Shown one piece after another: positions 41-37,505 of a stretch of DNA of 41,448 nucleotides. A program made the position numbers and the translations under genes. This DNA is from a virus. Where the stretch lies: the UHGV virus genome UHGV-0135480; one strand, 5' to 3'. How positions within the stretch are numbered: the stretch's first letter is position 1; each line of letters opens with the position of its first letter. The notes beneath the pieces were generated by a model, which saw only the letters and a program-made list of their open reading frames with translations, was not told the origin of the DNA and did not search any database.

Positions 41-116
41 AGTCCAAGTAGCTTATATGGTTAAAGCGCGTGTCTGAAAAACATGAGAAGAGGGTTCAAA
101 TCCCACTGGACTACCA
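41..116 (+). tRNA. tRNA, probable tRNA-Phe (anticodon GAA)
   Basis: Acceptor agtccag-like pairing 41-47 with 106-112, D-arm with GG, anticodon stem cgtgt(69-73)/acatg(81-85) with loop cTGAAaa (U33, GAA at 76-78), T-loop GGTTCAAATCC, encoded CCA 114-116. One acceptor and one T-stem mismatch lower confidence. Confidence 0.55.
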
Positions 117-966: not shown

Positions 967-1042
967 GAATCCGTGACAGAAATGGCTATGTGCCTGTCTG
1001 CAAAACAGGTTTATAAGGGTTCGAGTCCCTTCGGATTCTCCA
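967..1042 (+). tRNA. tRNA-Cys (anticodon GCA)
   Basis: Perfect 7-bp acceptor gaatccg(967-973)/cggattc(1032-1038), anticodon stem cctgt/acagg with loop cTGCAaa (GCA 1000-1002), T-arm aaggg-TTCGAGT-ccctt, discriminator U then CCA 1040-1042. A U73 discriminator is typical of tRNA-Cys. Confidence 0.8.
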
Positions 1043-25015: not shown

Positions 25016-25915
25016 TTACTTACCTACTGACAAAGGTGCTTCAATCTTTCCTGCATGTTTGTAGTTGTTGATGCCACCAATAAAGTCACTTGCAGTAAGA
25101 TGTTTTAAGTCACTTAAGGTGTTAAGTTGTACACCAATCTCAAAAGTAGGTGCATGGAACTCTTCATTGTTCATCAGTTCATAAACCTGCTTCATATGGT
25201 TCTGGTAAATCTGAGTGTCTCCAAAGACACCTATCAAGTATCGTGGAGTGTATCCAGTCATCTTACAAAGAACTTCTAAGATGAAGCCATAAGACGCAAT
25301 ATTAAATGGAAGTCCTAAAAAGGTGTCTACAGAACGTTGATACCATTGTAAGTCAACTTCACCTTCGTTAGTAATATAAATCTGAAACAAAACATGGCAA
25401 GGTGCTAAAGCCATCGAGTTTGCTGCAATATCTGCTGCATTCCAAGCATTAACAAGCATGTAGCGGTCTGTGATATCACCCTTCATCTTTGCTACTAAGG
25501 TCTCTAACTGGTCTACAACACAACCATTATGACCCTCAAAGTTCCTCCACTGAACCCCATAGATTCTCCCACCTGCATCTTCTAACCAATCTTGTTCAGA
25601 AGAATAATTAGAACTTAACCAGCGTTTAAAATCATCTGACCAGATAGTCCAGCGTTCTCCGTCATTTTCACCCCATGTGCGGTAACGGAGTTCGCCAAGC
25701 TTATTCTCGCCATTCAGGAACCATAAAGCTTCCCCAATGACTTGCCGTGTAAACACCTGTTTAGATGTTAAGAGCGGGAAACCAGTTCGCATATCAAAAC
25801 GAAACTGAGGTGGAGCAAATGCAGAGGTAACATCTCCAGTTCGTGTAGTACGCAGTTCACCAACGGATAAAACATGGTTCAGGATATTTTTGTAACTTGA
25901 ATCTGCTTGTGACAT
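25016..25915 (-). CDS. thyA: thymidylate synthase
   Basis: 299 aa with ThyA-type N-terminal region (ELRTTRTGDVTSAFAPPQFRFDM) and overall ThyA-like length and composition; ATG start. Confidence 0.85.
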   Translation of the reverse strand: MSQADSSYKNILNHVLSVGELRTTRTGDVTSAFAPPQFRFDMRTGFPLLTSKQVFTRQVIGEALWFLNGENKLGELRYRTWGENDGERWTIWSDDFKRWLSSNYSSEQDWLEDAGGRIYGVQWRNFEGHNGCVVDQLETLVAKMKGDITDRYMLVNAWNAADIAANSMALAPCHVLFQIYITNEGEVDLQWYQRSVDTFLGLPFNIASYGFILEVLCKMTGYTPRYLIGVFGDTQIYQNHMKQVYELMNNEEFHAPTFEIGVQLNTLSDLKHLTASDFIGGINNYKHAGKIEAPLSVGK

Positions 25916-25916
25916 A

Positions 25917-26462
25917 TCAAAAGTGTCCTTTTACTTGTGGAACATAAATTTCAAAAGTTGCTTTACCATCCTCTGATGGTTTTGACTGTACCTTTGTAAA
26001 TACACGGTTATCATACAGCTTCTCAAAGAAGTTTTCAAAAGGTAAATGCACAGTGGCCTCTTGAGTAACTTTATGGAAGACTGTATGGAACACCACACCA
26101 GCATACGGTAAAGCATTGACAAGGACACCTGCACCACCAATTACAAAGACATCTTCATCAATAGAGCTATCAAGATACTTCAAAAATGCTCCAAATGACT
26201 CTTTACTGGCTTTAGCATACATTACATCATCTTTGCCAAAGTCTATGCCTAAGTATGGTACAGAATTTGTTAAGATTAGGTTTGCACGTTCTGGTAGAGG
26301 TTTACTACCCAGAGTCTTAAAAGTCTCATTACCCATGACTACTAAGTTGTTTTTAGTGAGTCTCTTAAACTCTTGCATATCCTGTTTATGTCGAGGCCAC
26401 GGCATACCAGTTGGAGTACCAAACTCTCCATTTTCACCACTTGCAAAGATTAATTTAATCAT
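25917..26462 (-). CDS. folA: dihydrofolate reductase
   Basis: 181 aa starting MIKLIFA..G.PW, resembling DHFR N-termini such as T4 frd; directly upstream of thyA. Confidence 0.8.
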   Translation of the reverse strand: MIKLIFASGENGEFGTPTGMPWPRHKQDMQEFKRLTKNNLVVMGNETFKTLGSKPLPERANLILTNSVPYLGIDFGKDDVMYAKASKESFGAFLKYLDSSIDEDVFVIGGAGVLVNALPYAGVVFHTVFHKVTQEATVHLPFENFFEKLYDNRVFTKVQSKPSEDGKATFEIYVPQVKGHF

Positions 26463-26719
26463 TTTGTAAATCCTTTCTTAATAAACCAGTTGATAACATT
26501 CTTCACAGCTTTACTACGATGGTAGATAAAATGTGGAGAGGGTTGGTATGAACCATAAGCCCAGAAAGCGATAATTTCATTACACCCTGTGCATCGGGTA
26601 CTTTCTTCAGCAATATGACCGTTGACTATTTCACTTACCTCACCTTGTAAGTCTGTACACCCGCAATGTGGACAACGGATAGGTGTTCCATCAGACTCAT
26701 AGCAGTGTTCAATTTTCAT
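26459..26719 (-). CDS. small Cys-rich (zinc-ribbon-like) protein
   Basis: 86 aa with CPHCGC and CTGC pairs; stop overlaps the DHFR start (ATGA-type overlap). Confidence 0.45.
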   Translation of the reverse strand: MKIEHCYESDGTPIRCPHCGCTDLQGEVSEIVNGHIAEESTRCTGCNEIIAFWAYGSYQPSPHFIYHRSKAVKNVINWFIKKGFTK

Positions 26720-27235
26720 CTATTTAACCTCAAAAACTGGTTCAAGAACCAATATAAAGTCTACACAGTCATCTTCTTCATCCAGAATACCATCAAAGTT
26801 CTTAGGTACAAAGTCGAAGAGGCTCATAGAATATCGGTCAGAAGTAACCCTGATAGTGTTCCCTATATTCTCTACAGTTAATATTGTACGGCTTTCTGTT
26901 ACCTCACTTAGAAGATTACTCACAAAGTCATCTAAGAAGTGTTTCATCAGTGACTTGAAGCCTTTAGGGTAATCTGTACCAGAGTATGTTTCAATCTGAG
27001 GAACAAGCTTAACATTTATACTAGTCTTTGTTAAGAACGTTTTAGAGAACATGCTATCAGGTAGCTTACAAACAGTCTTTCCAGTACCTTCATGTTCAAT
27101 CTCAACAAAACCAGCTTCGTCGCCACATGTAACTATTTTAAAAGATGCTTCATTCTCATACTGTGAAGCCATAAACTTTTTAAGCATCTCTTTAAGGAAA
27201 TCTGCATGAGCATCTTGTAAGTAGATATCAATCAT
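26720..27235 (-). CDS. hypothetical protein
   Basis: ORF-track start 27241 is TTG; ATG at 27235 has AGGTGA 6 nt upstream. No motif. Confidence 0.45.
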   Translation of the reverse strand: MIDIYLQDAHADFLKEMLKKFMASQYENEASFKIVTCGDEAGFVEIEHEGTGKTVCKLPDSMFSKTFLTKTSINVKLVPQIETYSGTDYPKGFKSLMKHFLDDFVSNLLSEVTESRTILTVENIGNTIRVTSDRYSMSLFDFVPKNFDGILDEEDDCVDFILVLEPVFEVK

Positions 27236-27248
27236 AATCAATCACCTA

Positions 27249-27608
27249 TTATGGGAACAGACACTTAATGTCGTCGTTTTTGAAAACGAAACTTGTGTAG
27301 TTGTGACCATCAACATCTAGCCAAACAGCCTGAACATCTACACCATCAAGGTTGTGGTAAAGCTCTTTGATGAAGTGGTCTTTTACAATCTGACTGCTAG
27401 TTGTTTCCAACTTAATGTTCGAGATTGCTGAACCTACAGCCATATAGCCCATGACACGTTTCTTCTCAGTATGCTTAATCTTACCATCTTTGTAAGCCAT
27501 AATGAGATTGGAAAGAATTTTTACACCATAATACTTTTCAAGGTGAGTAGGTACACCATAAAAGCCTAATGCGAAGTTTTCAGAGTGGATAATGTTTTCA
27601 CGTTTCAT
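27249..27608 (-). CDS. hypothetical protein
   Basis: 119 aa, ATG start at 27608; no motif. Confidence 0.45.
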   Translation of the reverse strand: MKRENIIHSENFALGFYGVPTHLEKYYGVKILSNLIMAYKDGKIKHTEKKRVMGYMAVGSAISNIKLETTSSQIVKDHFIKELYHNLDGVDVQAVWLDVDGHNYTSFVFKNDDIKCLFP

Positions 27609-27609
27609 A

Positions 27610-27909
27610 TTAATCTGCCAACCTTAAATTAAAATTAACACCAAATTTTTCACATACTTCCAACATATACTCAAGAGAGACATTCCCAGTGAGGTGGATT
27701 ATGTTGGATACACGAGCCTGAGAGATACCACAAATTTTAGCAACTTGCTCTTGAGAAAGACCTCTGGACTTAATCTCTCTCTTAAAACGATGTGCAACAA
27801 AGTCTCTCATTTCGTCTACATCCATTGGACAAATATAACTCTCCATTTCAGCCTCTCTATCAGCCTCCCAATCATCTTGTGGAGCATAAGGGTCAAAAAC
27901 CTCATTCAT
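27610..27909 (-). CDS. XRE-family helix-turn-helix transcriptional regulator
   Basis: C-terminal HTH LSQEQVAKICGISQARVSNI; ORF-track start 27939 is TTG, ATG at 27909. Confidence 0.6.
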   Translation of the reverse strand: MNEVFDPYAPQDDWEADREAEMESYICPMDVDEMRDFVAHRFKREIKSRGLSQEQVAKICGISQARVSNIIHLTGNVSLEYMLEVCEKFGVNFNLRLAD

Positions 27910-28114
27910 CTTTCTTCTTCCGTTTGCGTGAAGTGTCAATCAATGAATCTATGTTTGTAGCTCTAACCTTTTCACGTTCATCGTTAAGATAATCATCAAG
28001 AGCCTTTTCAATCTGTGAATTATCTTGACAGATAACTGTAAAGACTGTAAAGCCGTCTGTATCGTCAATTATCTTACCATAACCGCTTCTGGGATGTACT
28101 TTTTAAGAGCCATA

Positions 28115-28498
28115 TCAAATACCTGTGCAGCTTCTGTTTTCTAAGAAATACTCAACACCATACATAGCTTTTTGCATCAAATCTTCTTTAAACTGGATAC
28201 GGTGGTTGAGCATCGCCTGTACATCAATATCGTCATGGTGTTTCTCTTTAATGTTTGCAGATTGCAGGAAATACTCTGCAAGAACACGATACTGATAGTC
28301 AGTTACCTTATCAGTCATCTCTGTTAAAGACTCTTCAGAGATTGGTTTAAGTAACTCACCATTAGCTAGAGCAACACCTTTAACAATCTGGCAAGTGTCT
28401 TCTGGAACACCTGATAAGTCCACATTTGGAAGTTCTGTTGCATTGACTGGTAAATTCATTGCCATAACCATTGCAGCAGCTAATAAAATCTTTTTCAT
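28115..28498 (-). CDS. secreted/periplasmic protein with N-terminal signal peptide
   Basis: 127 aa; N-terminus MKKILLAAAMVMAMNLPVNA followed by TE is a classic Sec signal peptide. Function unknown. Confidence 0.5.
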   Translation of the reverse strand: MKKILLAAAMVMAMNLPVNATELPNVDLSGVPEDTCQIVKGVALANGELLKPISEESLTEMTDKVTDYQYRVLAEYFLQSANIKEKHHDDIDVQAMLNHRIQFKEDLMQKAMYGVEYFLENRSCTGI

Positions 28499-28542
28499 AA
28501 TGACCTCAAAGTTATATTAAATTTTGTATTACATTGAGTATA

Positions 28543-28571
28543 AAAATAAGCTATAACACCTGACTTGTCAA
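28543..28571 (-). promoter_or_regulatory. candidate sigma70-like promoter for the secreted-protein operon (TTGACA-N17-TATTTT on the - strand)
   Basis: Reverse-strand TTGACA at 28571..28566 and TATTTT at 28548..28543, about 45 nt upstream of the ATG at 28498. The -10 is weak. Confidence 0.35.
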
Positions 28572-28626
28572 CAGATTTTATAGCTTATTTGGCAGATTTT
28601 TTATAAGGCTACTGCCATCCTTCCAA

Positions 28627-28681
28627 ACTATACCAAACCTAACCCCACCTAACCCTACCACACCAGACCTAACCTAACCTT
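28627..28681. repeat. pentanucleotide-periodic tract A1, (ACCNN)x11 on + strand
   Basis: ACC at 28632, 28637 ... 28677 with exact 5-nt spacing (ACCAA ACCTA ACCCC ACCTA ACCCT ACCAC ACCAG ACCTA ACCTA ACCTT). Confidence 0.85.
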
Positions 28682-28682
28682 G

Positions 28683-28751
28683 TTAAAAGACCCTCTTAAA
28701 GACCTTTTAAAAAGGTAAGTCTCATTTTAATGTAGCTGAGACTAACTACCC
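28683..28751. repeat. conserved 69-bp module, copy 1: 33-bp box plus 7-bp-stem hairpin
   Basis: Box ttaaaagaccctcttaaagaccttttaaaaagg (28683-28715), hairpin agtctca-12 nt-tgagact (28718-28743), then aactaccc. Identical to 30094-30162. Confidence 0.85.
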
Positions 28752-28753
28752 AT

Positions 28754-28813
28754 ACCAGACCCTACCTTACCAAACCAGACCTCACCCTACCCCACCATAC
28801 CGTATACTACCTC
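28754..28813. repeat. pentanucleotide-periodic tract A2, (ACCNN)x12
   Basis: ACC at 28754 + 5k for k = 0-11, with one degenerate unit (ATA at 28804). Confidence 0.85.
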
Positions 28814-28814
28814 A

Positions 28815-28863
28815 TTAAAAGACCCTCTTAAAGACCTTTTAAAAAGGAGCCTCCGAAGAGGCT
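28815..28863 (-). terminator. 33-bp box copy 2 plus GC hairpin with UUCG-type loop: intrinsic terminator for the - strand gene ending at 28875
   Basis: On the - strand, hairpin agcctc-ttcg-gaggct (28863..28848) is followed by CC TTTTT from the box complement. Box 28815-28847 is identical to copies 1 and 3. Confidence 0.55.
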
Positions 28864-28874
28864 ACCTAGTCAAC

Positions 28875-29315
28875 TTAGAAAGGTTTTCTGCGTTGCTTGT
28901 TAATGTTAGCTTTCATAGCAGCTAAGTGGTTTTGCTGTTCAATTAGTCGTGAACGTTCTTGGTGGCTAAGTGCCATAGTGTTCACATTCTCAATTGCTTG
29001 AGTAGCTTGCTTTAAAGCACGACCAATTTTACCAGACATTTTACGTTTTGCAATAGTTGCTTGATGCTTAGGTTCAACCACACGATAACCAACACCCATT
29101 GAAGCAACCAGATAAATCTTCTCTTCTTTAAGAAGCTTCTCAATAAACTTCTCAAGTCGGTTTAGACGTGTAAGCGCATAAGCCTTCATTTCATCTTCGT
29201 ACTTAACAATGTCACCTTGATAAGTTGGCTTCACAATACCTAAGAAGGTGTCCATCTCAGAGTGTGATACAGTGTCACCGTAACTAAACTTTGCTGCTAA
29301 TGCTTTTGTATTCAT
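28875..29315 (-). CDS. hypothetical protein (146 aa), cassette gene 2
   Basis: ATG at 29315, stop at 28875 followed by the hairpin/U-tract; basic helical C-terminus. No motif recognised. Confidence 0.5.
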   Translation of the reverse strand: MNTKALAAKFSYGDTVSHSEMDTFLGIVKPTYQGDIVKYEDEMKAYALTRLNRLEKFIEKLLKEEKIYLVASMGVGYRVVEPKHQATIAKRKMSGKIGRALKQATQAIENVNTMALSHQERSRLIEQQNHLAAMKANINKQRRKPF

Positions 29316-29317
29316 AA

Positions 29318-29923
<606 letters not shown>

Positions 29924-30017
29924 TTAGTTGATTGTTAAGTTGTTTGTAAAGAACCCTCAACAGAAGACTCTTTAGAAACTTGGTAGATTTTTAACGTGGC
30001 TACTACCATCCACCCAT

Positions 30018-30092
30018 ACCATACCGAACCTTACCTTACCAAACCAGACCGCGCCTTACCAAACCAGACCAAACATTACTTTACCCTACCTT
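30018..30092. repeat. pentanucleotide-periodic tract B1, (ACCNN)x15
   Basis: ACC (occasionally GCC/ACA/ACT) at 30018 + 5k for k = 0-14; contains the 17-nt subrepeat ccttaccaaaccagacc also present in tract A2. Confidence 0.85.
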
Positions 30093-30093
30093 A

Positions 30094-30162
30094 TTAAAAG
30101 ACCCTCTTAAAGACCTTTTAAAAAGGTAAGTCTCATTTTAATGTAGCTGAGACTAACTACCC
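30094..30162. repeat. conserved 69-bp module, copy 2 (identical to 28683-28751)
   Basis: Box 30094-30126 and hairpin agtctca...tgagact 30129-30154 plus aactaccc; on the - strand the hairpin is followed by TACC TTTTT, so it may act as a terminator or attenuator. Confidence 0.85.
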
Positions 30163-30169
30163 GCACTTT

Positions 30170-30259
30170 ACCGCACCGGACCTTACCGGACCGCACATCA
30201 CCGCACTAAACCAGACATCACATTACCTGACCACACCAAACCAAACATCACATTACTTA
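30170..30259. repeat. pentanucleotide-periodic tract B2, (ACYNN/ACANN)x18
   Basis: AC at 30170 + 5k for k = 0-17 (ACCGC ACCGG ACCTT ACCGG ACCGC ACATC ACCGC ACTAA ACCAG ACATC ACATT ACCTG ACCAC ACCAA ACCAA ACATC ACATT ACTTA). Confidence 0.85.
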
Positions 30260-30289
30260 AAAACCCTCTTAGAAGACTCTTAAGTGATG

Positions 30290-30331
30290 TTGGTGAGTAC
30301 CCGTTGGTTTATGCTGCTCAGTATACTCACC
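30290..30331. other. long hairpin (about 10-bp stem, 22-nt loop) just downstream of the ligase gene, preceded by a degenerate box copy (30257-30284)
   Basis: ttggtgagta (30290-30299) pairs with tactcaccaa (30322-30331); the degenerate box ttaaaaaccctcttagaagactcttaag lies just 5'. Confidence 0.5.
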
Positions 30332-30347
30332 AAATTTTCTATGTCAA
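30320..30347 (-). promoter_or_regulatory. sigma70-like promoter on the - strand (TTGACA-N16-TATACT) reading into repeat region B
   Basis: Reverse-strand TTGACA at 30347..30342 and TATACT at 30325..30320; located between the ligase stop and the repeat region. Confidence 0.45.
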
Positions 30348-30353
30348 CAACTT

Positions 30354-31454
30354 TTATTCATAATCTCGAATAACTAACCCAACAGGGAACTGTAAAGAAC
30401 CCTTACGAGTCATCTTCTGGAACTGTACCGTTAAGGGCTTCCCGATAAACTCTTCAGGATGTTCAGCAAGATACTGTTTCTTCTCGTGTGTAGTTTTCCA
30501 TGAAACATCTACAAAGACGTTAGGAAGAGTCTCTACAACGAACTTGCCATGACCACGTTTGTCAGTCTTTACACCAGTCACTTTAAATTCTTCAGTGTGC
30601 ATCTTCTTGTGCTTAATCAAGAAGTATGAACGGTGACCACACTCATAGAAGGAGTCTTCAGAGATTGAACGGTACATTGCACCTTCAAACTTAGCTTCAA
30701 CCCACTTATCATGGGCTTCATCAAACTCTTCCCAAGAATTTACACGACGAGACTTAACAGGAACAACTTTACAGCCATCTCTAAAGTCATTCAATGGTGA
30801 AGTCTCAATAATATCTCTACGCTCAGGCCACGTCTTAGTGCTGTCACAGATATCGTACCAGTAGAACTGGAGTAGATGTCGGTCTGGATTGTCAGCATTC
30901 TTAATCATAGACACAATATCTTCTAAGTCCCAACCATGAGCATAAATCTCACCATCAAAGTCTTCTACTTGTGGATGCAATTTAAGCAACAAAAGCAAAT
31001 CTGGGGTTAGTTCTGCTGGGACGTTGTAAATAGTATTCTCACGAGAATAAGCCGTGAAGCTAACTAAATCAGCATCTCTTGAGATTCTACAACGGACACC
31101 ATCAAGTTTTGGTTGAGCATCAGCAGGGAACTTCAGATACTTTGCATGACTAACCTTTGCAGCATCATGAGCAAGCTGTACACCTACCTTCTCAGTATTC
31201 TGTGCAGACTCTTTTGTGTAAGCATAGCCTTTACGGTCAACTTGCTTTTTATACTTAGCAGCAACTTCAAAGAGAGCTTGCTGTTCAGCATTACGCTCAT
31301 TCTTTTTACCGATGTTTTTAGGTTCTGCTGTATACTCTTCAAACATCATCTTGCCATTTTCTTTACCGTAGGTTGTAATAACTTTGTCACCTACAGCAAC
31401 GCATGACCAGACGTTAAAAGAGCCATCTTTATTTTGTTTGTACAGAATTGTCAT
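30354..31454 (-). CDS. ATP-dependent DNA ligase
   Basis: Adenylation motif KLDGVRC (K-x-D-G), size about 366 aa; ATG at 31454 has AGAGG upstream (ORF-track start 31490 is another in-frame ATG). N-terminal region of about 95 aa precedes the catalytic motif. Confidence 0.75.
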   Translation of the reverse strand: MTILYKQNKDGSFNVWSCVAVGDKVITTYGKENGKMMFEEYTAEPKNIGKKNERNAEQQALFEVAAKYKKQVDRKGYAYTKESAQNTEKVGVQLAHDAAKVSHAKYLKFPADAQPKLDGVRCRISRDADLVSFTAYSRENTIYNVPAELTPDLLLLLKLHPQVEDFDGEIYAHGWDLEDIVSMIKNADNPDRHLLQFYWYDICDSTKTWPERRDIIETSPLNDFRDGCKVVPVKSRRVNSWEEFDEAHDKWVEAKFEGAMYRSISEDSFYECGHRSYFLIKHKKMHTEEFKVTGVKTDKRGHGKFVVETLPNVFVDVSWKTTHEKKQYLAEHPEEFIGKPLTVQFQKMTRKGSLQFPVGLVIRDYE

Positions 31455-33261: not shown

Positions 33262-35961
33262 TCAATGTACTTCCAACCAGCTCTTACCAACCTTACCTGT
33301 GCCAGTTACAAGCGTCTCACTCTTCAAACCTAAATTCTTAGATGCCTGACCATACATCCAGTCAGTTATGGCTTTCACTTCTTGAGTCATACTTTCTGGA
33401 CATTCCCAACTGTTTTCATCGTGGTATGCCAGCAAAAGCCTCGCACCGATTGCTGGTTTTCGTCCATTTAATTTTGTCAAACCTTCTTCACACGCTCTTC
33501 TGCAAGCAAGGTTAATTGCCTCATTTTGAATCTGAGCCTCTGAACCCATGAGCAAATAATTCAACAACTTATGTGGAGATTTACACCACAACCAAGCTCC
33601 AGCAACCTTTACAAAACCACCTTTAGAGATTGCAGCAGTCTTACCAAATACCTCTTCAAGTGCCTTTTTAGTTGCTTTGTAGTCAGCTTCCAAATCATCC
33701 AGCAACTTCTTAATTTTAGGCAAACGGATAAAGTAAGTCTGCTTAGTCAGTGCACCTTCCTGAGTAGTTGCAGCTTTAATCGTCTTAGCAAACTTCTCAT
33801 CACCTGCACCAAACAAAAGTGCATAGATACCATTCTTAGCTTTCTTACGACCCTTGCTAATCTCATGGAGAAGGTTCTCATCCTGAGTAGCTCGACAAGT
33901 CAAGATATCCTGCTCATCATTCAAGCTAAAGTAAATACTGTTCAGTGTGTGTGCATCAGTCCCTGAATAGACAACGTACAGGTCATTCTCAGAGTCATAG
34001 CGAAGGTACTTATCAATCTCTGGGTTGAGGTACTCATCAAAGTGTTTGCAGTAATAGCGTCCATCTTCTTGACGAATAAACTCAATCTCTTCTTTACCTT
34101 GCGTTACCGCTTTGGTGAAGTCTTTATCACCCATAAAGTTACAAAGGAGAACTAGCTGGGCTGAGTTCATGTCTACAGAGACAACGTTAGTACCTTCTTC
34201 ACAAATCCACACTGCCCTCATTGGTTCCCCATAGACAGCAGCACCAGACGGTACGTTTACAATACCATATTGTGTCATACGTCCAGTTGAAGTACCAAAC
34301 ACCATTGCACCAGCACTAAGGCGACCATCAGGACGAATCTGGTTCAACCAACCTTTTTCATCATCCTTTGAGTTCTCAATAGTTCTGCGTCGGTGCATCA
34401 AAGTATAGTACTTAGCAATCTTCTGTCCAAGTTCACCTTCAATCGTATCATAAGATGACTCAGTAAGCTTTGGTGAAGTACGGATTAAGCAAGGCTCAAG
34501 CAAATCTGTGTATTTTTTCACAGACCAGTTATGCTCAATGTACTGGACACCTTCATGTTCAACATAGCTCAAACCACACCGCTCAACCATTTCCTGCCAC
34601 TTAGGATGTTTTGTAATCATCTTTTTATTGTCTTTGAAACGACAAACTTTAACAGGGCGACCATCTGAGTCTTTCTTGTAGTTCCAGTCATCTGGTATCC
34701 AACCAACTGATTTCAAGTAGTCTTTAACAACTGCTACCTGAGTCATACGAGAAACTTCAAACTCAATTGGTGTATACGGTGCATCAATCAATCCTGTGTA
34801 TCGACTTGACTCAAGTTCAAAGTGGTTAACAACGTGGCTGTTATAGTACTTCACAGTTTTGACTGTTTTTACTGACTTCCAGTCTTTGCATTTCTTACCA
34901 ATCTTTGCGTTCAACTCATTGCAAATTGCACGAGCATCCTTCATTGCTACAAAGCCTTCCTTGTACTCTTCACCAGTTACAGAGTTGGTTGGTGTATAGC
35001 AATTTCTCTTTTCAATGTTAAAAATCTTTGTAGTTGGCTTACCAAATGGTTTGATTTCATAAGTCTGCATCTCACCATTACGTACCTGCTGACGATACTT
35101 CGTCTTAGGGTACTTGGTAATTCTTTTCAGTCCATCTGCATGACCAAATGCTTCAACATACTCATTCCAAGCCTTTGCAAACTCTTCTCCAGTGACTTTA
35201 CCTTTGGTCTTAATAGTTGGAGGTAGATGTGGTTCAACCTCTGAAGCAAGCTCATTAGTCAACTTGTCAAGTTCCTTTACATGGAACTCCATAAGCTCTT
35301 TATCAGCTTTCCAGCCATTGATAGCTTGTTGACTCATCCAGAAAGATGTTTCTTTAGCTCGCATGTAGGTTTCATAAGTGTCTATGCCACACTTCTTAAG
35401 CTTGAGATATTCATTATCAAGTGCCCGTTTAGTTTTGGCGTTAATACGGATATCTTCTACAACACGAGTGAAGATTTCTGCATTCCACACACCCCAGTGT
35501 TCAATCTCTGGTTTACGAACACCAACACGAGCACCCCATGCAGCCAAACCATGAGCACCTTTATAACCCTTTGGAGTTGGTCTATCCATCCACTGAACAC
35601 GAGACTGGATAAGAGAATCCTGAAAGAAATTACTCCACGGTTTACACTTTGGATTATCAAAGTTCCATAAATCAGGTGCAATGTGATTGAAAACCCACCA
35701 GTCATAACCGAGACCATTATGGATGCAAAGACGTTTTGCCTTTAACGCAAACTCAATACCTTCACGTAAGCCACCCTTGATGTACTTGGTGTACTTGTGA
35801 CCGAGAATAGGTTCATCTGTAAAGACCCATACAGGTGGCTCTTCATCGTCAGATTTATAGTCTGCGAAAGCCATTACGTGCACTTTAGTGAACTCAAGGA
35901 GTAAACCATCAGTTTCTGTATCACCAACTAAATGTAAGTTTTTAAAATCTACGTTTTCCAT
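33262..35961 (-). CDS. DNA polymerase, family A, with N-terminal 3'-5' exonuclease domain
   Basis: About 899 aa; Exo I motif LVGDTETDGL near the N-terminus, polymerase-domain length and C-terminal His typical of Pol I/T7 gp5-type enzymes; ATG at 35961 has GAGGGA upstream (ORF-track ATG 35991 also possible). Confidence 0.9.
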   Translation of the reverse strand: MENVDFKNLHLVGDTETDGLLLEFTKVHVMAFADYKSDDEEPPVWVFTDEPILGHKYTKYIKGGLREGIEFALKAKRLCIHNGLGYDWWVFNHIAPDLWNFDNPKCKPWSNFFQDSLIQSRVQWMDRPTPKGYKGAHGLAAWGARVGVRKPEIEHWGVWNAEIFTRVVEDIRINAKTKRALDNEYLKLKKCGIDTYETYMRAKETSFWMSQQAINGWKADKELMEFHVKELDKLTNELASEVEPHLPPTIKTKGKVTGEEFAKAWNEYVEAFGHADGLKRITKYPKTKYRQQVRNGEMQTYEIKPFGKPTTKIFNIEKRNCYTPTNSVTGEEYKEGFVAMKDARAICNELNAKIGKKCKDWKSVKTVKTVKYYNSHVVNHFELESSRYTGLIDAPYTPIEFEVSRMTQVAVVKDYLKSVGWIPDDWNYKKDSDGRPVKVCRFKDNKKMITKHPKWQEMVERCGLSYVEHEGVQYIEHNWSVKKYTDLLEPCLIRTSPKLTESSYDTIEGELGQKIAKYYTLMHRRRTIENSKDDEKGWLNQIRPDGRLSAGAMVFGTSTGRMTQYGIVNVPSGAAVYGEPMRAVWICEEGTNVVSVDMNSAQLVLLCNFMGDKDFTKAVTQGKEEIEFIRQEDGRYYCKHFDEYLNPEIDKYLRYDSENDLYVVYSGTDAHTLNSIYFSLNDEQDILTCRATQDENLLHEISKGRKKAKNGIYALLFGAGDEKFAKTIKAATTQEGALTKQTYFIRLPKIKKLLDDLEADYKATKKALEEVFGKTAAISKGGFVKVAGAWLWCKSPHKLLNYLLMGSEAQIQNEAINLACRRACEEGLTKLNGRKPAIGARLLLAYHDENSWECPESMTQEVKAITDWMYGQASKNLGLKSETLVTGTGKVGKSWLEVH

Positions 35962-35991
35962 TTTTACTCCCTCTAAAATCATTAACCTCAT

Positions 35992-36219
35992 ACATTACTG
36001 CAAAAAATTATAAAAAGCAAGTTGACAATGCACTTGACAAGGTGTTAATCTTTGCGAAGTGGGTTTTTACTTAAAAGGTTACTTAACAGTTTAACTATAC
36101 AGATACTTTAAAACTCTTAAAAGATTATTTAATAGCTTTTTAAAAAGCTTTAAAGTATAACGTATAGAATACGTTAAGATAAAAGATTAAAACTTAATAG
36201 TTACTTAAAAGAGGCTTAC
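35992..36219. promoter_or_regulatory. AT-rich divergent intergenic region with tandem TTGACA hexamers and two palindromes
   Basis: TTGACA at 36022-36027 and 36034-36039; 16-bp perfect palindrome agctttttaaaaagct (36134-36149); 8-bp inverted repeat taacgtat-aga-atacgtta (36158-36176) overlapping TATAGAAT. Confidence 0.4.
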
Positions 36220-36642
36220 ATGCAGAAAATGTTTGTTCACCCAGACATAGCTGACTTTGTTAGAGCTTTGCAGAAGTTGGAAGAACTTGACATTGCTGCT
36301 CAACGGGAATATGCTCACCATCACAGGAGAATGGTTGATATACAACATGAAATAGAGTTGTCTGAAAACTATGAAGATGACTTAAAATGCTCTGTATTTG
36401 AGCATATGAAAGATGTTGCTACAGCGAGACGTAAAGCTAAAGACACAGTTGCTTTACTAGATTCTCTTAAAAAGAGGTTGCAAAGTGGTACAGACCTGTG
36501 TAATCTAGCGTCACTGATTAACGATGTTGAAACTTCTTGGGATAGGCACTATTATCCACGTTCTGAAAAGACACTTGACTTTTCTTCATCCGAAAACTTA
36601 AAATGTTCTAGAAAGAAACTTAACCAACTGAGAGAGAAATAA
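36220..36642 (+). CDS. hypothetical protein (140 aa)
   Basis: ATG with AAAAGAGG RBS; first gene of the + strand block divergent from the polymerase. No motif. Confidence 0.5.
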   Translation: MQKMFVHPDIADFVRALQKLEELDIAAQREYAHHHRRMVDIQHEIELSENYEDDLKCSVFEHMKDVATARRKAKDTVALLDSLKKRLQSGTDLCNLASLINDVETSWDRHYYPRSEKTLDFSSSENLKCSRKKLNQLREK

Positions 36643-36643
36643 T

Positions 36644-37444
36644 ATGAATATCGATGTAGAAAAGATGCTTGAAGAGAAAGGTGTTGATGAAGCATTCTTA
36701 ATCAATGCCGTAGAAAGCATGGCTATGATTCTTCGTGGTAATAACTACACAGAACAGTTTATGCCTGCAAGCTATAACTTGCCTGAAGACAAGTCTGATA
36801 ACGGTGCTTTTGCAGAACAGGTTAATATGATGTTGACAGACACTACACTTGCTCTGGCATCTATTGCGGTTGGTGTTGATGCACTTGCTGAGTTCATTTT
36901 TTATGAAATGCAAAAGAATGACTATATCAGGATGTCAGACGAAGATAAGGAACTGTTGCTGACTAAGGACACTGATTTCATTATTGATACGCTTATCTCA
37001 TCAACGAGTGCTGTTATGGCTGTTCTTGAGAAGCGTATGGAAGAGAAACTTTCACGATATGAAAAACTTGATTGGGGCGTAGAAGAATTAAACCCACGAA
37101 TCAAAGAGATTATCCAGCAAACTAAAGAGTCTTTGGAAGAAGCTGTTGAAAATGACTCTGTAGCTGATATAGAACCTCTTCAGGTGAAAGTTGCACTGAT
37201 GATTCCAGCTATCTCTACGATGATGAATATCGTTGCACTAATCCAACTGTCACAGATGATGGGTGTGAGTATTGAGTTCATTGAGGAAATGACTGGTGGC
37301 GTCAGTATGCAAGCAATCAATGATGTTTTGGTGAATATTGGTGCTTCAATCATTGAAGAGAAGCTACGCATTAACTTCGGTGATGATTTTGTGAAGCAAA
37401 TCTCAGCTATGGCTGAAAAAGAGTATGCTGAGCAACTGCACTAA
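36644..37444 (+). CDS. hypothetical strongly acidic protein (266 aa)
   Basis: High Asp/Glu content throughout; followed by a hairpin terminator. No motif. Confidence 0.5.
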   Translation: MNIDVEKMLEEKGVDEAFLINAVESMAMILRGNNYTEQFMPASYNLPEDKSDNGAFAEQVNMMLTDTTLALASIAVGVDALAEFIFYEMQKNDYIRMSDEDKELLLTKDTDFIIDTLISSTSAVMAVLEKRMEEKLSRYEKLDWGVEELNPRIKEIIQQTKESLEEAVENDSVADIEPLQVKVALMIPAISTMMNIVALIQLSQMMGVSIEFIEEMTGGVSMQAINDVLVNIGASIIEEKLRINFGDDFVKQISAMAEKEYAEQLH

Positions 37445-37462
37445 GTCTTTATAAATCTTACA

Positions 37463-37486
37463 AGCCTCCTTAGTTGGGGGCTTTTT
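37463..37486 (+). terminator. candidate rho-independent terminator
   Basis: 8-bp stem aagcctcc/gggggctt (one G-U pair), 5-nt loop, CTTTTT run. Confidence 0.45.
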
Positions 37487-37505
37487 AGTAATTAAGGGAG
37501 ATAAA

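What the first reader, a model, noticed from the sequence alone, without database searches (positions are those of the whole stretch)
35992..36219. AT-rich divergent control region between polymerase and + strand early genes, with palindromes
The 228-bp gap between the divergent DNA polymerase operon and the next + strand operon is very AT-rich, contains two TTGACA hexamers 12 bp apart, a 16-bp perfect palindrome (agctttttaaaaagct) and an 8-bp inverted repeat with 3-bp spacer (taacgtat aga atacgtta) overlapping TATAGAAT, plus repeated TTAAAAG-like motifs. This looks like an operator-controlled divergent promoter region and possibly a replication origin.
Basis: partly seen in the sequence, partly recalled or inferred. 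Interest (0 to 1): 0.45.

Follow-up and report, generated by a model that had tools for sequence, protein, structure and literature searches.

The report
Felix O1-type phage early divergent promoter region
This is the strongly conserved, very AT-rich control region between the DNA polymerase gene and the rightward replication-gene operon of a Felix O1-like phage, most likely two back-to-back host-type early promoters plus a long regulatory leader: an ordinary kind of element that has never been mapped experimentally in this phage family.

Summary
The window is a Felixounavirus (99.6% identical to LF82P2 and NBEco005). The finding is the Felix O1 gene 96 (DNA polymerase) / gene 97 intergenic region.

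Three corrections:
- The polymerase starts at 35961, so the gap is 258 bp, not 228.
- The 16-bp perfect palindrome is peculiar to this isolate. All 28 other distinct relatives have one T fewer.
- Against shuffles the two palindromes are only marginal. The doubled TTGACA and the CTTAAAAG-type words are clearly non-random.

The region is under purifying selection: 70% of columns are identical across three genera, against 18-42% at the least-conserved codon position of the flanking genes.

My reading, from sequence and comparison only:
- A strong sigma-70 promoter faces right (TTGACA at 36022, TG-n-TAATCT).
- A weaker conserved promoter faces left for the polymerase (TTGCTT, 17 bp, TAATGT).
- Their -35 elements abut.
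- The palindromes lie about 80-120 nt inside the rightward leader, not over these promoters.

The 8-bp inverted repeat keeps its symmetry through two compensatory changes, but it is unique in the genome and could not be linked to the phage HTH protein.

An origin role is compatible with the data, since this is the least stable duplex in the genome, but it is untested. The 2010 Felix O1 genome paper already assumed divergent early promoters here.

The parts
33262..35961 (-). DNA polymerase gene (Felix O1 ORF96 homologue). The true start is the ATG at 35961-35959.
   Evidence: Pfam DNA_pol_A on 33262-35961. This start is annotated in relatives. ORF96 is transcribed early.
35967..35973 (-). Ribosome-binding site GAGGGAG of the polymerase gene.
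   Evidence: Read from the sequence. Invariant across three genera.
35992..36020 (-). Candidate leftward promoter P(-) for the polymerase: -35 TTGCTT (36020->36015), 17-bp spacer, -10 TAATGT (35997->35992). Predicted start is near 35985.
   Evidence: Best minus-strand PWM site, score 6.7. The -35 is invariant. The -10 keeps TAnnGT (TAGGGT in Mooglevirus). The 17-bp spacing is fixed while the spacer sequence varies.
36010..36051 (+). Rightward promoter P(+): A-rich UP-like ATAAAAAG (36010-17), -35 TTGACA (36022-27), 18-bp spacer, extended -10 TG (36043-44) plus TAATCT (36046-51). Predicted start is near 36058.
   Evidence: The only strong site in the region, PWM score 11.5. It belongs to a genome-wide family 'AAAAAG-N3-4-TTGACA' that is 18-fold denser in intergenic DNA. 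Nearly invariant in three genera. A TTGACA-N17-TAnnnT promoter is kept in Arno18 and phiEa21-4.
36034..36039 (+). Second TTGACA, lying inside the spacer of P(+) with no -10 of its own. Role unknown; possibly a regulator site.
   Evidence: No -10 lies 16-18 bp downstream. Doubled TTGACA 12-13 bp apart occurs only three times in the NBEco005 genome, all intergenic. In both divergent regions the hexamers are invariant while the bases between them vary.
36058..36105 (+). Promoter-proximal leader: ACTTAAAAGGTT, CTTAACAG and ACTATACAGATAC.
   Evidence: Paralogous to the leaders after the two other doubled-TTGACA promoters (NBEco005 8575 and 86122). A CT(T)AA(A/C)AG word at about +12 to +20 is also present in Arno18 and phiEa21-4.
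36070..36211 (+). Eight CTT(T)AA(A/C/T)A(G/C) words at 36070, 36082, 36106, 36116, 36136, 36148, 36193 and 36204, arranged as pairs 10-12 bp apart.
   Evidence: Seven match the pattern used against 0.49 expected. Positions. CTTAAAAG is 8.8-fold denser in intergenic than in coding DNA genome-wide.
36134..36149 (.). Palindrome AGCTTTTTAAAAAGCT. It is 7-1-7 in all relatives.
   Evidence: Changes are one-sided only, and the hairpin is no better than shuffles (z=-0.9).
36158..36176 (.). Inverted repeat TAACGTAT-AGA-ATACGTTA enclosing TATAGAAT (36163-36170).
   Evidence: The seven inner pairs are kept in all 13 distinct sequences. Two pairs changed on both sides (A-T to T-A, and C-G to T-A). Unique in the genome. 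The hairpin is weak: -5.8 kcal/mol, and -3.5 in Moogle. TATAGAA(T/A) without the arms is kept in Arno18 and phiEa21-4.
36209..36222 (+). RBS AAGAGG (36209-14) and ATG (36220) of the first rightward gene.
   Evidence: Read from the sequence. AGAGG is invariant across genera.
36220..36642 (+). First rightward gene (Felix O1 gp97 / Felix01p180 homologue, 140 aa, function unknown). It is followed by a 266-aa gene, dNMP kinase and primase/helicase.
   Evidence: PHROG 4039, unknown function, with no Pfam match. The model is a helical hairpin (pLDDT 72.5) with no informative structural match.

Best explanation
The region is the main early control region of a Felix O1-type phage.

Two host sigma-70 promoters sit back to back, with their -35 elements one base apart:
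- P(+) is strong. It has an A-rich UP-like tract, TTGACA at 36022, an 18-bp spacer and TG-n-TAATCT. It starts near 36058 and drives the operon of gene 97, dNMP kinase and primase/helicase.
- P(-) is weaker (TTGCTT, 17 bp, TAATGT). It starts near 35985 and drives the polymerase gene through a roughly 24-nt leader.

- Its first roughly 50 nt, together with the doubled TTGACA, form a promoter-leader module that the phage uses at three sites. This probably marks a small co-regulated set of immediate-early promoters.
- Its distal part is unique to this locus. It holds repeated CTTAAAAG-type words, the A/T palindrome, and the symmetric repeat around TATAGAAT.
- That distal part most likely carries a site for a dimeric DNA-binding protein, a secondary -10-only promoter, or both, tuning expression of the replication operon.

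Shown: the sequence features, their conservation, the paralogy and the compensatory changes. Inferred: every functional assignment, including the transcription start sites.
For: Identity and literature:
- The window is a Felixounavirus and the region is Felix O1 gene 96/97.
- ORF96 is transcribed within 5 min, and divergent promoters were assumed here.

Promoters:
- P(+) is the only strong PWM site, score 11.5.
- It belongs to a phage promoter family, AAAAAG-N3-4-TTGACA: 13 pattern matches at 6 intergenic sites (8.57, 9.10, 10.60, 10.69, 50.39 and 86.11 kb) against 5 matches in coding DNA, 18-fold denser in intergenic DNA.
- For P(-), the hexamers and the exact 17-bp spacing are conserved while the spacer sequence varies.

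Selection:
- 70-74% of intergenic columns are identical in three genera, against 18-42% at the least-conserved codon position of the flanks.
- The neighbouring intergenic stretch 37445-37505 is only 56-67% identical to those genera.

Paralogous module:
- It recurs at the other divergent region and at 86.1 kb.
- The doubled TTGACA is conserved there too, with variable bases between the hexamers.

Inverted repeat and deep relatives:
- The repeat is fully paired in 13 distinct sequences, with two double-sided changes.
- Deep relatives keep the order promoter, then words, then TATAGAA, then RBS.
Against: - No transcription start data exist for any Felixounavirus in the searched literature.
- P(-) scores only 6.7. 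Sites scoring 6 or more are common: 415 in the window on both strands.
- The simple consensus scan found no promoter inside the gap.
- A perfect TATAAT on the minus strand (36013->36008) is an alternative polymerase -10, although it is not conserved between genera.
- The function of the second TTGACA and of the words is pure inference. CTTAAAAG-type words are common in this phage's intergenic DNA generally, and some are simply the A-tracts of terminators or parts of RBS contexts.
- The inverted repeat is unique in the genome and could not be tied to the HTH protein.
Confidence: 0.6

Rival explanations
1. Transcription-activated replication origin. The strong P(+) promoter fires into the genome's most easily melted DNA. 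The transcript, or the opening it causes, lets the phage primase/helicase and polymerase start replication, as at the T7 primary origin (promoters plus an AT-rich stretch) or at T4 oriF/oriG (promoter plus a DNA unwinding element). The comparison with T7 and T4 is from my own knowledge, not tested here.
For: - 36062-36219 is the least stable duplex of the whole 88-kb genome at 100, 160 and 228 bp scales, about 4.5 SD from the mean at 100 bp.
- It lies directly downstream of a strong promoter.
- It sits between the polymerase and primase/helicase genes.
- Sequence conservation is far beyond what a leader needs.
- The cumulative GC-skew minimum falls here.
Against: - GC skew tracks gene orientation throughout the window, so it says nothing independent.
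- There are no DnaA boxes, IHF sites or GATC clusters.
- The promoter-proximal half is a module reused at two other sites, which points to a transcriptional role.
- The first downstream gene product shows no recognisable initiator fold.
- Other origin-like non-coding stretches exist in the same window: promoter, AT-rich module and GGT pentamer runs at 28499-28874 and 29921-30355.
Confidence: 0.15
2. Operator-controlled secondary promoter. TATAGAAT (-10 TAGAAT at 36165-70) is a -35-less promoter used later in infection. The symmetric repeat around it is the operator of a dimeric phage repressor or activator, for example the Cro/CI-type HTH protein at 27610-27909. The upstream words and palindrome would be activator sites.
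For: - Dyad symmetry is kept through two compensatory changes, including one that weakens the hairpin (C-G to T-A in Moogle, -5.8 to -3.5 kcal/mol). That fits recognition by a protein better than selection for RNA stability.
- TATAGAA(T/A) lies about 57-61 nt before the start codon in Arno18 as in this window, and is retained further upstream (about 106 nt) in phiEa21-4.
- The HTH_3 protein is present in exactly the three genera that have the repeat arms. It was not detected in Erwinia or Pectobacterium relatives, which lack the arms.
Against: - There is no -35, and the PWM score is only 4.3.
- The repeat occurs once in the genome, whereas operators usually recur.
- The HTH recognition helix (SQ-A/S-RVSN) does not co-vary with the half-site change.
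- An 8-bp-arm repeat is not rare by chance in this composition (P=0.16).
Confidence: 0.3
3. RNA-level leader element. The A/U-rich 160-nt leader acts as RNA, either as a nut/boxA-like antitermination site that lets RNA polymerase read through the operon's terminators, or as a translational or stability element with the two palindromes as hairpins.
For: - The Felix O1 paper notes that read-through of the many terminators is unexplained.
- Window 36114-36128, CUCUUAAAAGAUUAU, resembles the lambda nutL boxA-spacer cgCUCUUAAAAAUUAa and is followed by a hairpin-capable palindrome.
- A hairpin sits at the same relative place in the paralogous leader (AGATATC-N6-GATATCT, -8.1 kcal/mol, z=-3.6).
- One-sided changes in the A/T palindrome are mostly G-U compatible on the + strand.
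Against: - The defining 5' half of boxA (GCUC) is absent here. The CUC is not conserved: it is CCC, GAC or GTC in other genera.
- There is no Rfam match at E<=1.
- The whole leaders fold no better than shuffles (z=-1.0 and +1.2).
- The hairpins are weak.
Confidence: 0.15

Closest known systems
Felix O1 gene 96/97 intergenic region as described by Whichard et al. 2010 (PMC3185647)
   Same: It is the same locus, 98.4% identical. The paper assumes that early transcription starts from divergent promoters here, and shows that ORF96 is transcribed within 5 min.
   Different: The paper reports finding no recognisable promoter in this gap. Added here are specific conserved promoter candidates, the doubled -35, the paralogous module, and the compensatory changes in the inverted repeat.
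Back-to-back divergent sigma-70 promoter pairs in early regions of virulent coliphages and in bacterial divergons (own knowledge)
   Same: Two outward-facing promoters have adjacent or overlapping upstream elements in an AT-rich gap, and an A-rich UP-like tract is shared between them.
   Different: P(+) carries a second TTGACA inside its spacer. It is followed by a 160-nt leader that is unusually conserved and extremely AT-rich.
T7 primary origin and T4 oriF/oriG: a promoter followed by an AT-rich unwinding element (own knowledge)
   Same: A strong promoter reads into the least stable duplex of the genome, next to replication genes.
   Different: The promoter is of host type rather than phage-RNAP or MotA-dependent. 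There is no functional evidence, and half of the element is a reused promoter-leader module.
Lambda nutL / rrn boxA antitermination sites (Prasch et al. 2009, PMC2724277)
   Same: A leader-borne CUCUUAAAA-AUU stretch is followed by a stem-loop, downstream of an early promoter.
   Different: It lacks the GC of CGCUCUUA. The 5' half is not conserved between genera. No N-like protein has been identified.
Cro/CI-type operators of temperate phages (own knowledge)
   Same: A 19-bp dyad with 7-8 bp arms whose symmetry is maintained in evolution. A Cro/CI-type HTH protein is encoded in the phage.
   Different: It is a single copy and does not overlap a convincing promoter. The phage is virulent, and no co-variation with the HTH protein was seen.

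Membership tests
Sigma-70 promoter, rightward P(+) | -35 TTGACA and a -10 TAnnnT, 16-18 bp apart | tested here: met
   TTGACA at 36022, 18-bp spacer, TAATCT with an upstream TG. PWM score 11.5, the top site in the region.
Sigma-70 promoter, rightward P(+) | Conservation of the hexamers in relatives, and membership of the phage's own promoter set | tested here: met
   The -35 is invariant, and the -10 is TAATCT or TAGTCT in three genera. TTGACA-N17-TAnnnT is kept in Arno18 and phiEa21-4. It shares the AAAAAG-N3-4-TTGACA signature with six intergenic sites in NBEco005.
Sigma-70 promoter, rightward P(+) | Transcription actually starts there | not testable with these tools
   No TSS data for Felixounavirus were found.
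Sigma-70 promoter, leftward P(-) | Hexamers with 17-bp spacing, conserved while the spacer drifts | tested here: met
   TTGCTT-N17-TAATGT, or TAGGGT in Mooglevirus. The spacing is fixed and the spacer sequence is variable. The score is modest at 6.7.
Cro/CI-type operator | Dyad-symmetric site whose symmetry is maintained | tested here: met
   Seven of seven inner pairs are kept in 13 distinct sequences, and two pairs changed on both sides.
Cro/CI-type operator | Overlaps a promoter that it controls | tested here: inconclusive
   It encloses TAGAAT, but no -35 is present (PWM 4.3). It lies about +100 to +118 from the predicted P(+) start.
Cro/CI-type operator | Related sites elsewhere in the genome | tested here: not met
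   There is no second copy, with up to 2-3 mismatches allowed, in the 88-kb genome of NBEco005.
Cro/CI-type operator | A cognate DNA-binding protein that co-varies with the site | tested here: inconclusive
   The HTH_3 protein co-occurs with the arms at genus level. Its recognition helix is unchanged where the half-site changes.
Replication origin (promoter plus unwinding element type) | A promoter reading into an unusually unstable AT-rich stretch | tested here: met
   It is the least stable duplex in the genome at 100-228 bp scales, and P(+) lies upstream.
Replication origin (initiator-dependent type) | DnaA boxes, IHF sites, GATC clusters, or iterons bound by an adjacent initiator | tested here: not met
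   There are no DnaA, IHF or GATC matches even with one mismatch. The downstream gene product has no initiator-like fold. The repeated words exist, but they are a genome-wide intergenic feature.
Replication origin | Replication initiates there | not testable with these tools
   This needs marker-frequency analysis or 2D gels.
nut / boxA antitermination site | boxA (C/U)GCUCUU(U)A | tested here: not met
   The window has aaCUCUUA. The CUC becomes CCC, GAC or GTC in other genera. Consensus taken from PMC2724277.
Known structured RNA leader | A match to a described RNA family, or folding better than shuffles | tested here: not met
   No Rfam hit at E<=1. Leader z-scores are -1.0 and +1.2.
T4-type middle promoter (MotA box plus -10) | MotA box about 12 bp upstream of TAnnnT, and MotA/AsiA encoded by the phage | not tested
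   AAAAGCTTTA-N12-TAGAAT (36143-36170) resembles the recalled consensus. That is a resemblance from memory only. The Felix O1 paper states that no T4-like polymerase-modifying proteins are apparent.

The most novel reading that the evidence does not exclude
The two divergent intergenic regions of Felix O1-type phages, this one and the gene 40/41 region, share the doubled-TTGACA promoter module. They could be transcription-activated replication origins. In this reading the strong early promoter opens the genome's least stable duplex, and forks leaving both sites would move co-directionally with all four transcription units. The conserved words and the symmetric repeat would then be loading or regulatory sites for phage replication proteins.
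Probability: 0.12. Interest if true: 0.55.

Novelty: new member of a known kind. Interest (0 to 1): 0.3.

Why it matters
Felix O1-type phages are widely used for Salmonella and E. coli typing, biocontrol and therapy. Their transcription programme and replication origin have nevertheless never been mapped. The 2010 genome paper left open both the early promoters and how the many terminators are passed.

This analysis gives concrete, testable promoter positions. It also identifies a three-member promoter-leader module with a doubled -35, and a short symmetric site under clear selection. These would help in engineering such phages, for example in choosing safe insertion sites or building reporter phages, and in designing the 5'-end mapping experiment that would settle the question. 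It does not reveal a new kind of element.

Tried and rejected
1. Known RNA families: no Rfam hit in 35850-36350 at E<=1.
2. Global RNA structure of either leader: no better than shuffles. The A/T palindrome hairpin has z=-0.9.
3. Host-factor sites: no IHF, DnaA, CRP or GATC matches. There is only a one-mismatch Fis-like match.
4. Operator regulon: no second copy of the inverted repeat in the genome.
5. Co-variation of the HTH protein with the half-site: the recognition helix is invariant, so the test is uninformative.
6. Function of the first downstream gene:
   - No Pfam match, and the PHROG is of unknown function.
   - No relative in the PDB by sequence.
   - Only 9 homologues were found, all Ounavirinae.
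   - The AlphaFold model is a helical hairpin (pLDDT 72.5) with only generic coiled-coil matches and none at E<=0.001.
7. boxA/nut reading: the 5' half is missing and not conserved.
8. The minus-strand perfect TATAAT (36013->36008) as the polymerase -10: it has no -35 at 15-19 bp and is not conserved in other genera.
9. The second TTGACA as an independent promoter: there is no -10 at 16-18 bp in this region or in the paralogous one.
10. Literature: no TSS or RNA-seq study of a Felixounavirus was found. The CRISPRi-ART study of SUSP1 does not address this region.
11. My early impression of strict 12-bp word spacing was corrected to 10-12 bp on exact indexing. No claim of helical phasing or DNA curvature is made.
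12. Distant relatives through IMG/VR added few new lineages.

Full report
**What the window is**

The 1.2 kb around the finding is 99.6% identical to Felixounavirus LF82P2 and 99.4% to phage NBEco005. It matches 255 records, almost all Felix O1-like myoviruses of Escherichia, Salmonella, Shigella and Citrobacter. In Felix O1 itself (98.4% identity) the finding is the gap between ORF96 (DNA polymerase, leftward) and ORF97 (Felix01p180, rightward).

The rightward genes are:
- a 140-aa protein of unknown function;
- a 266-aa protein labelled 'minor tail protein' only through PHROG 4251;
- dNMP kinase;
- a T7-gp4-like primase/helicase.

**Checking the observation**

- TTGACA at 36022 and 36034.
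- AGCTTTTTAAAAAGCT at 36134-36149.
- TAACGTAT-AGA-ATACGTTA at 36158-36176 around TATAGAAT.
- TTAAAAG at 36071, 36117 and 36205.
- GC of 25.4% against 39.4% for the window, the most AT-rich 228 bp of the window.

Three corrections apply.

1. The polymerase most likely starts at the ATG at 35961, which has the RBS GAGGGAG. Position 35991 is only the start of the longest ORF. Relatives annotate the shorter start, and 35962-35991 carries 1-nt indels between genera. The gap is therefore 258 bp.
2. The perfect 16-bp palindrome is due to one extra T found only in this window. All 28 other distinct sequences read AGCTTTT-A-AAAAGCT.
3. Against 3000 dinucleotide-preserving shuffles, the results were as follows:
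   - The palindrome has P=0.025.
   - An 8-bp-arm inverted repeat has P=0.16, or 0.047 when at least 2 G/C are required. Both are unremarkable.
   - The doubled TTGACA has P=0.0007.
   - The CTTAAAAG-type words number 7 against 0.49 expected (P<1/3000). These two are clearly not chance.

**Selection**

I aligned the region with Suspvirus (SUSP2, PC79-13) and Mooglevirus (Moogle, Sf15, ESh21).
- 70-74% of intergenic columns are identical in all three genera.
- The least-conserved codon position is identical in only 42% of columns in the polymerase gene, 32% in gene 97 and 18% in the 266-aa gene.
- The next intergenic gap (37445-37505) is only 56-67% identical to those genera.

Nearly the whole gap is therefore under purifying selection.

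**Promoters**

A position-weight scan finds one strong site, score 11.5. It consists of TTGACA (36022-27), an 18-bp spacer, and TG-n-TAATCT (36043-51), preceded by ATAAAAAG.
- The same 'AAAAAG-N3-4-TTGACA' signature marks six intergenic sites in NBEco005. It is 18-fold denser in intergenic than in coding DNA.
- Distant subfamily members (Pectobacterium phage Arno18, Erwinia phage phiEa21-4) keep a TTGACA-N17-TAnnnT promoter at the same place.

On the other strand the best site is TTGCTT (36020->36015), 17 bp, TAATGT (35997->35992), score 6.7.
- The score is modest.
- The -35 is invariant.
- The -10 keeps TAnnGT (TAGGGT in Mooglevirus).
- The spacing is exactly 17 in all genera while the spacer sequence drifts.

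That pattern is expected of a real promoter.

The two -35 elements are one base apart, back to back. This agrees with the Felix O1 paper, which found ORF96 transcribed within 5 min. The paper assumed divergent promoters between genes 96 and 97, but reported finding none. No transcription-start data for this genus were found.

**The doubled TTGACA and a reused module**

The second TTGACA has no -10 of its own. TTGACA-N6-7-TTGACA occurs only three times in the NBEco005 genome, always in intergenic DNA:
- here;
- in the other divergent region (Felix O1 genes 40/41; NBEco005 8575);
- at 86122.

All three sites are followed about 48-60 bp later by ACTTAAAAGG/ATT-type words, and the first two align for about 100 bp. 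In both divergent regions the two hexamers are invariant across three genera while the bases between them vary. This looks like a small class of early promoters sharing an extra, unidentified recognition feature. A regulator site is my inference.

**The AT-rich leader**

Given P(+), the AT-rich 160 bp (36058-36219) is transcribed leader.
- It holds eight CTT(T)AA(A/C/T)A(G/C) words in pairs 10-12 bp apart.
- Such words are 5-9-fold denser in intergenic DNA genome-wide. Some are just terminator A-tracts or RBS contexts.
- The order promoter, words, TATAGAA(T/A), words, RBS is nevertheless preserved as far as Arno18 and phiEa21-4.

**The inverted repeat**

In 13 distinct sequences the seven inner pairs are always complementary. 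Two pairs changed on both sides (A-T to T-A, and C-G to T-A), with no one-sided breaks.
- The hairpin is weak: -5.8 kcal/mol, and -3.5 in Moogle.
- The C-G to T-A change weakens it further. I read this as favouring symmetric protein recognition over RNA stability.
- However, the site is unique in the genome.
- It lies about 100 nt downstream of the predicted P(+) start.
- The TAGAAT inside it has no -35.

The Cro/CI-type HTH protein at 27610-27909 (Pfam HTH_3) is found in exactly the three genera that have the arms. Its recognition helix does not change where the half-site does. The link is therefore unproven.

The A/T palindrome shows only one-sided changes and no folding signal.

**RNA-level readings**

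- There is no Rfam match.
- The leaders fold no better than shuffles.
- CUCUUAAAAGAUUAU resembles the lambda nutL boxA-spacer and is followed by a hairpin. However, the defining GC is absent and the CUC is not conserved.

I do not file the region as a nut site.

**Origin reading**

The stretch is the least stable duplex of the entire 88-kb genome at 100-228 bp scales. It follows a strong promoter and sits between the polymerase and primase/helicase genes. This resembles the layouts of the T7 primary origin and T4 oriF/oriG (own knowledge).

Against it:
- The skew minimum here only mirrors gene orientation.
- No host initiator or architectural sites are present.
- Half of the element is a reused promoter module.
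- gp97 is a helical hairpin with no informative structural match.
- Other non-coding, repeat-rich stretches in the window are at least as origin-like.

**Verdict**

The region is a conserved early divergent promoter region with a long, selected leader. This kind of element is known, and the literature already anticipated it at this locus. The operator and origin ideas remain open hypotheses that simple experiments would settle.

Noticed in passing
window 28499-28874 and 29921-30355 (read on the - strand): Two non-coding stretches with no ORF of 40 aa or more. Each holds a promoter-like TTGAC(A/T), terminator-like hairpins, and the module CCTTTTTAAAAGGTCTTTAAGAGGGTCTTTTAA (3 copies plus a variant). 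Each also has 100-150-nt runs of GGTNN pentamers (TRF periods 5, 10, 15, 20). Unlike the finding region, they are variable within the genus (mostly 80-90% identity) and occur 1-5 times per genome. Their function is unknown. They are an alternative candidate for an origin or a small-RNA locus.
   Followed up: partly
window 36644-37444 (+): The 266-aa gene is called 'minor tail protein' in many records and in PHROG 4251. It sits in the replication-gene operon, has no Pfam match, and diverges fast (54-58% nucleotide identity between genera). The label looks like propagated annotation.
   Followed up: partly
window 36134-36149: This isolate alone carries an extra T in the T-run, which turns a 7-1-7 palindrome into a perfect 8+8. 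It could be a real homopolymer polymorphism or a sequencing error.
   Followed up: yes
L013 8476-8724 (NBEco005, Felix O1 genes 40/41 divergent region): This is a second divergent control region. It has the same doubled-TTGACA promoter, a good leftward TTGACT-N17-TACCAT promoter, a T4-late-like TATAAATA, and a hairpin AGATATC-N6-GATATCT. About 100 nt of its leader are invariant across three genera, so it is even more conserved than the finding region.
   Followed up: partly
L012 about 25400-31100 (NBEco005 81.2-86.9 kb): An array of small genes is separated by roughly 90-bp spacers of two repeated types. Each spacer has a G/C hairpin without a T-run and an identical RBS context (..ccttaaactaggagattc(t/a)aaaATG).
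   Followed up: no
search results: Records named Campylobacter phage A132/A126, a Staphylococcus phage and a Listeria phage match this Enterobacteria-phage sequence, the Campylobacter ones at about 96-99%. These are probably contaminated or mislabelled entries.
   Followed up: no
window 42-112, 870-959, 967-1039 (+): Three tRNA genes lie at the left end of the window. Their layout differs from that of NBEco005 at the corresponding place, so the window is not collinear with that genome there.
   Followed up: no
L010 2745-3221 (phiEa21-4) and L001 3251-3763 (ASO1A): HNH homing-endonuclease genes are inserted next to the polymerase gene in some relatives: upstream of it in phiEa21-4, and downstream in ASO1A. 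This window has none at either place.
   Followed up: no
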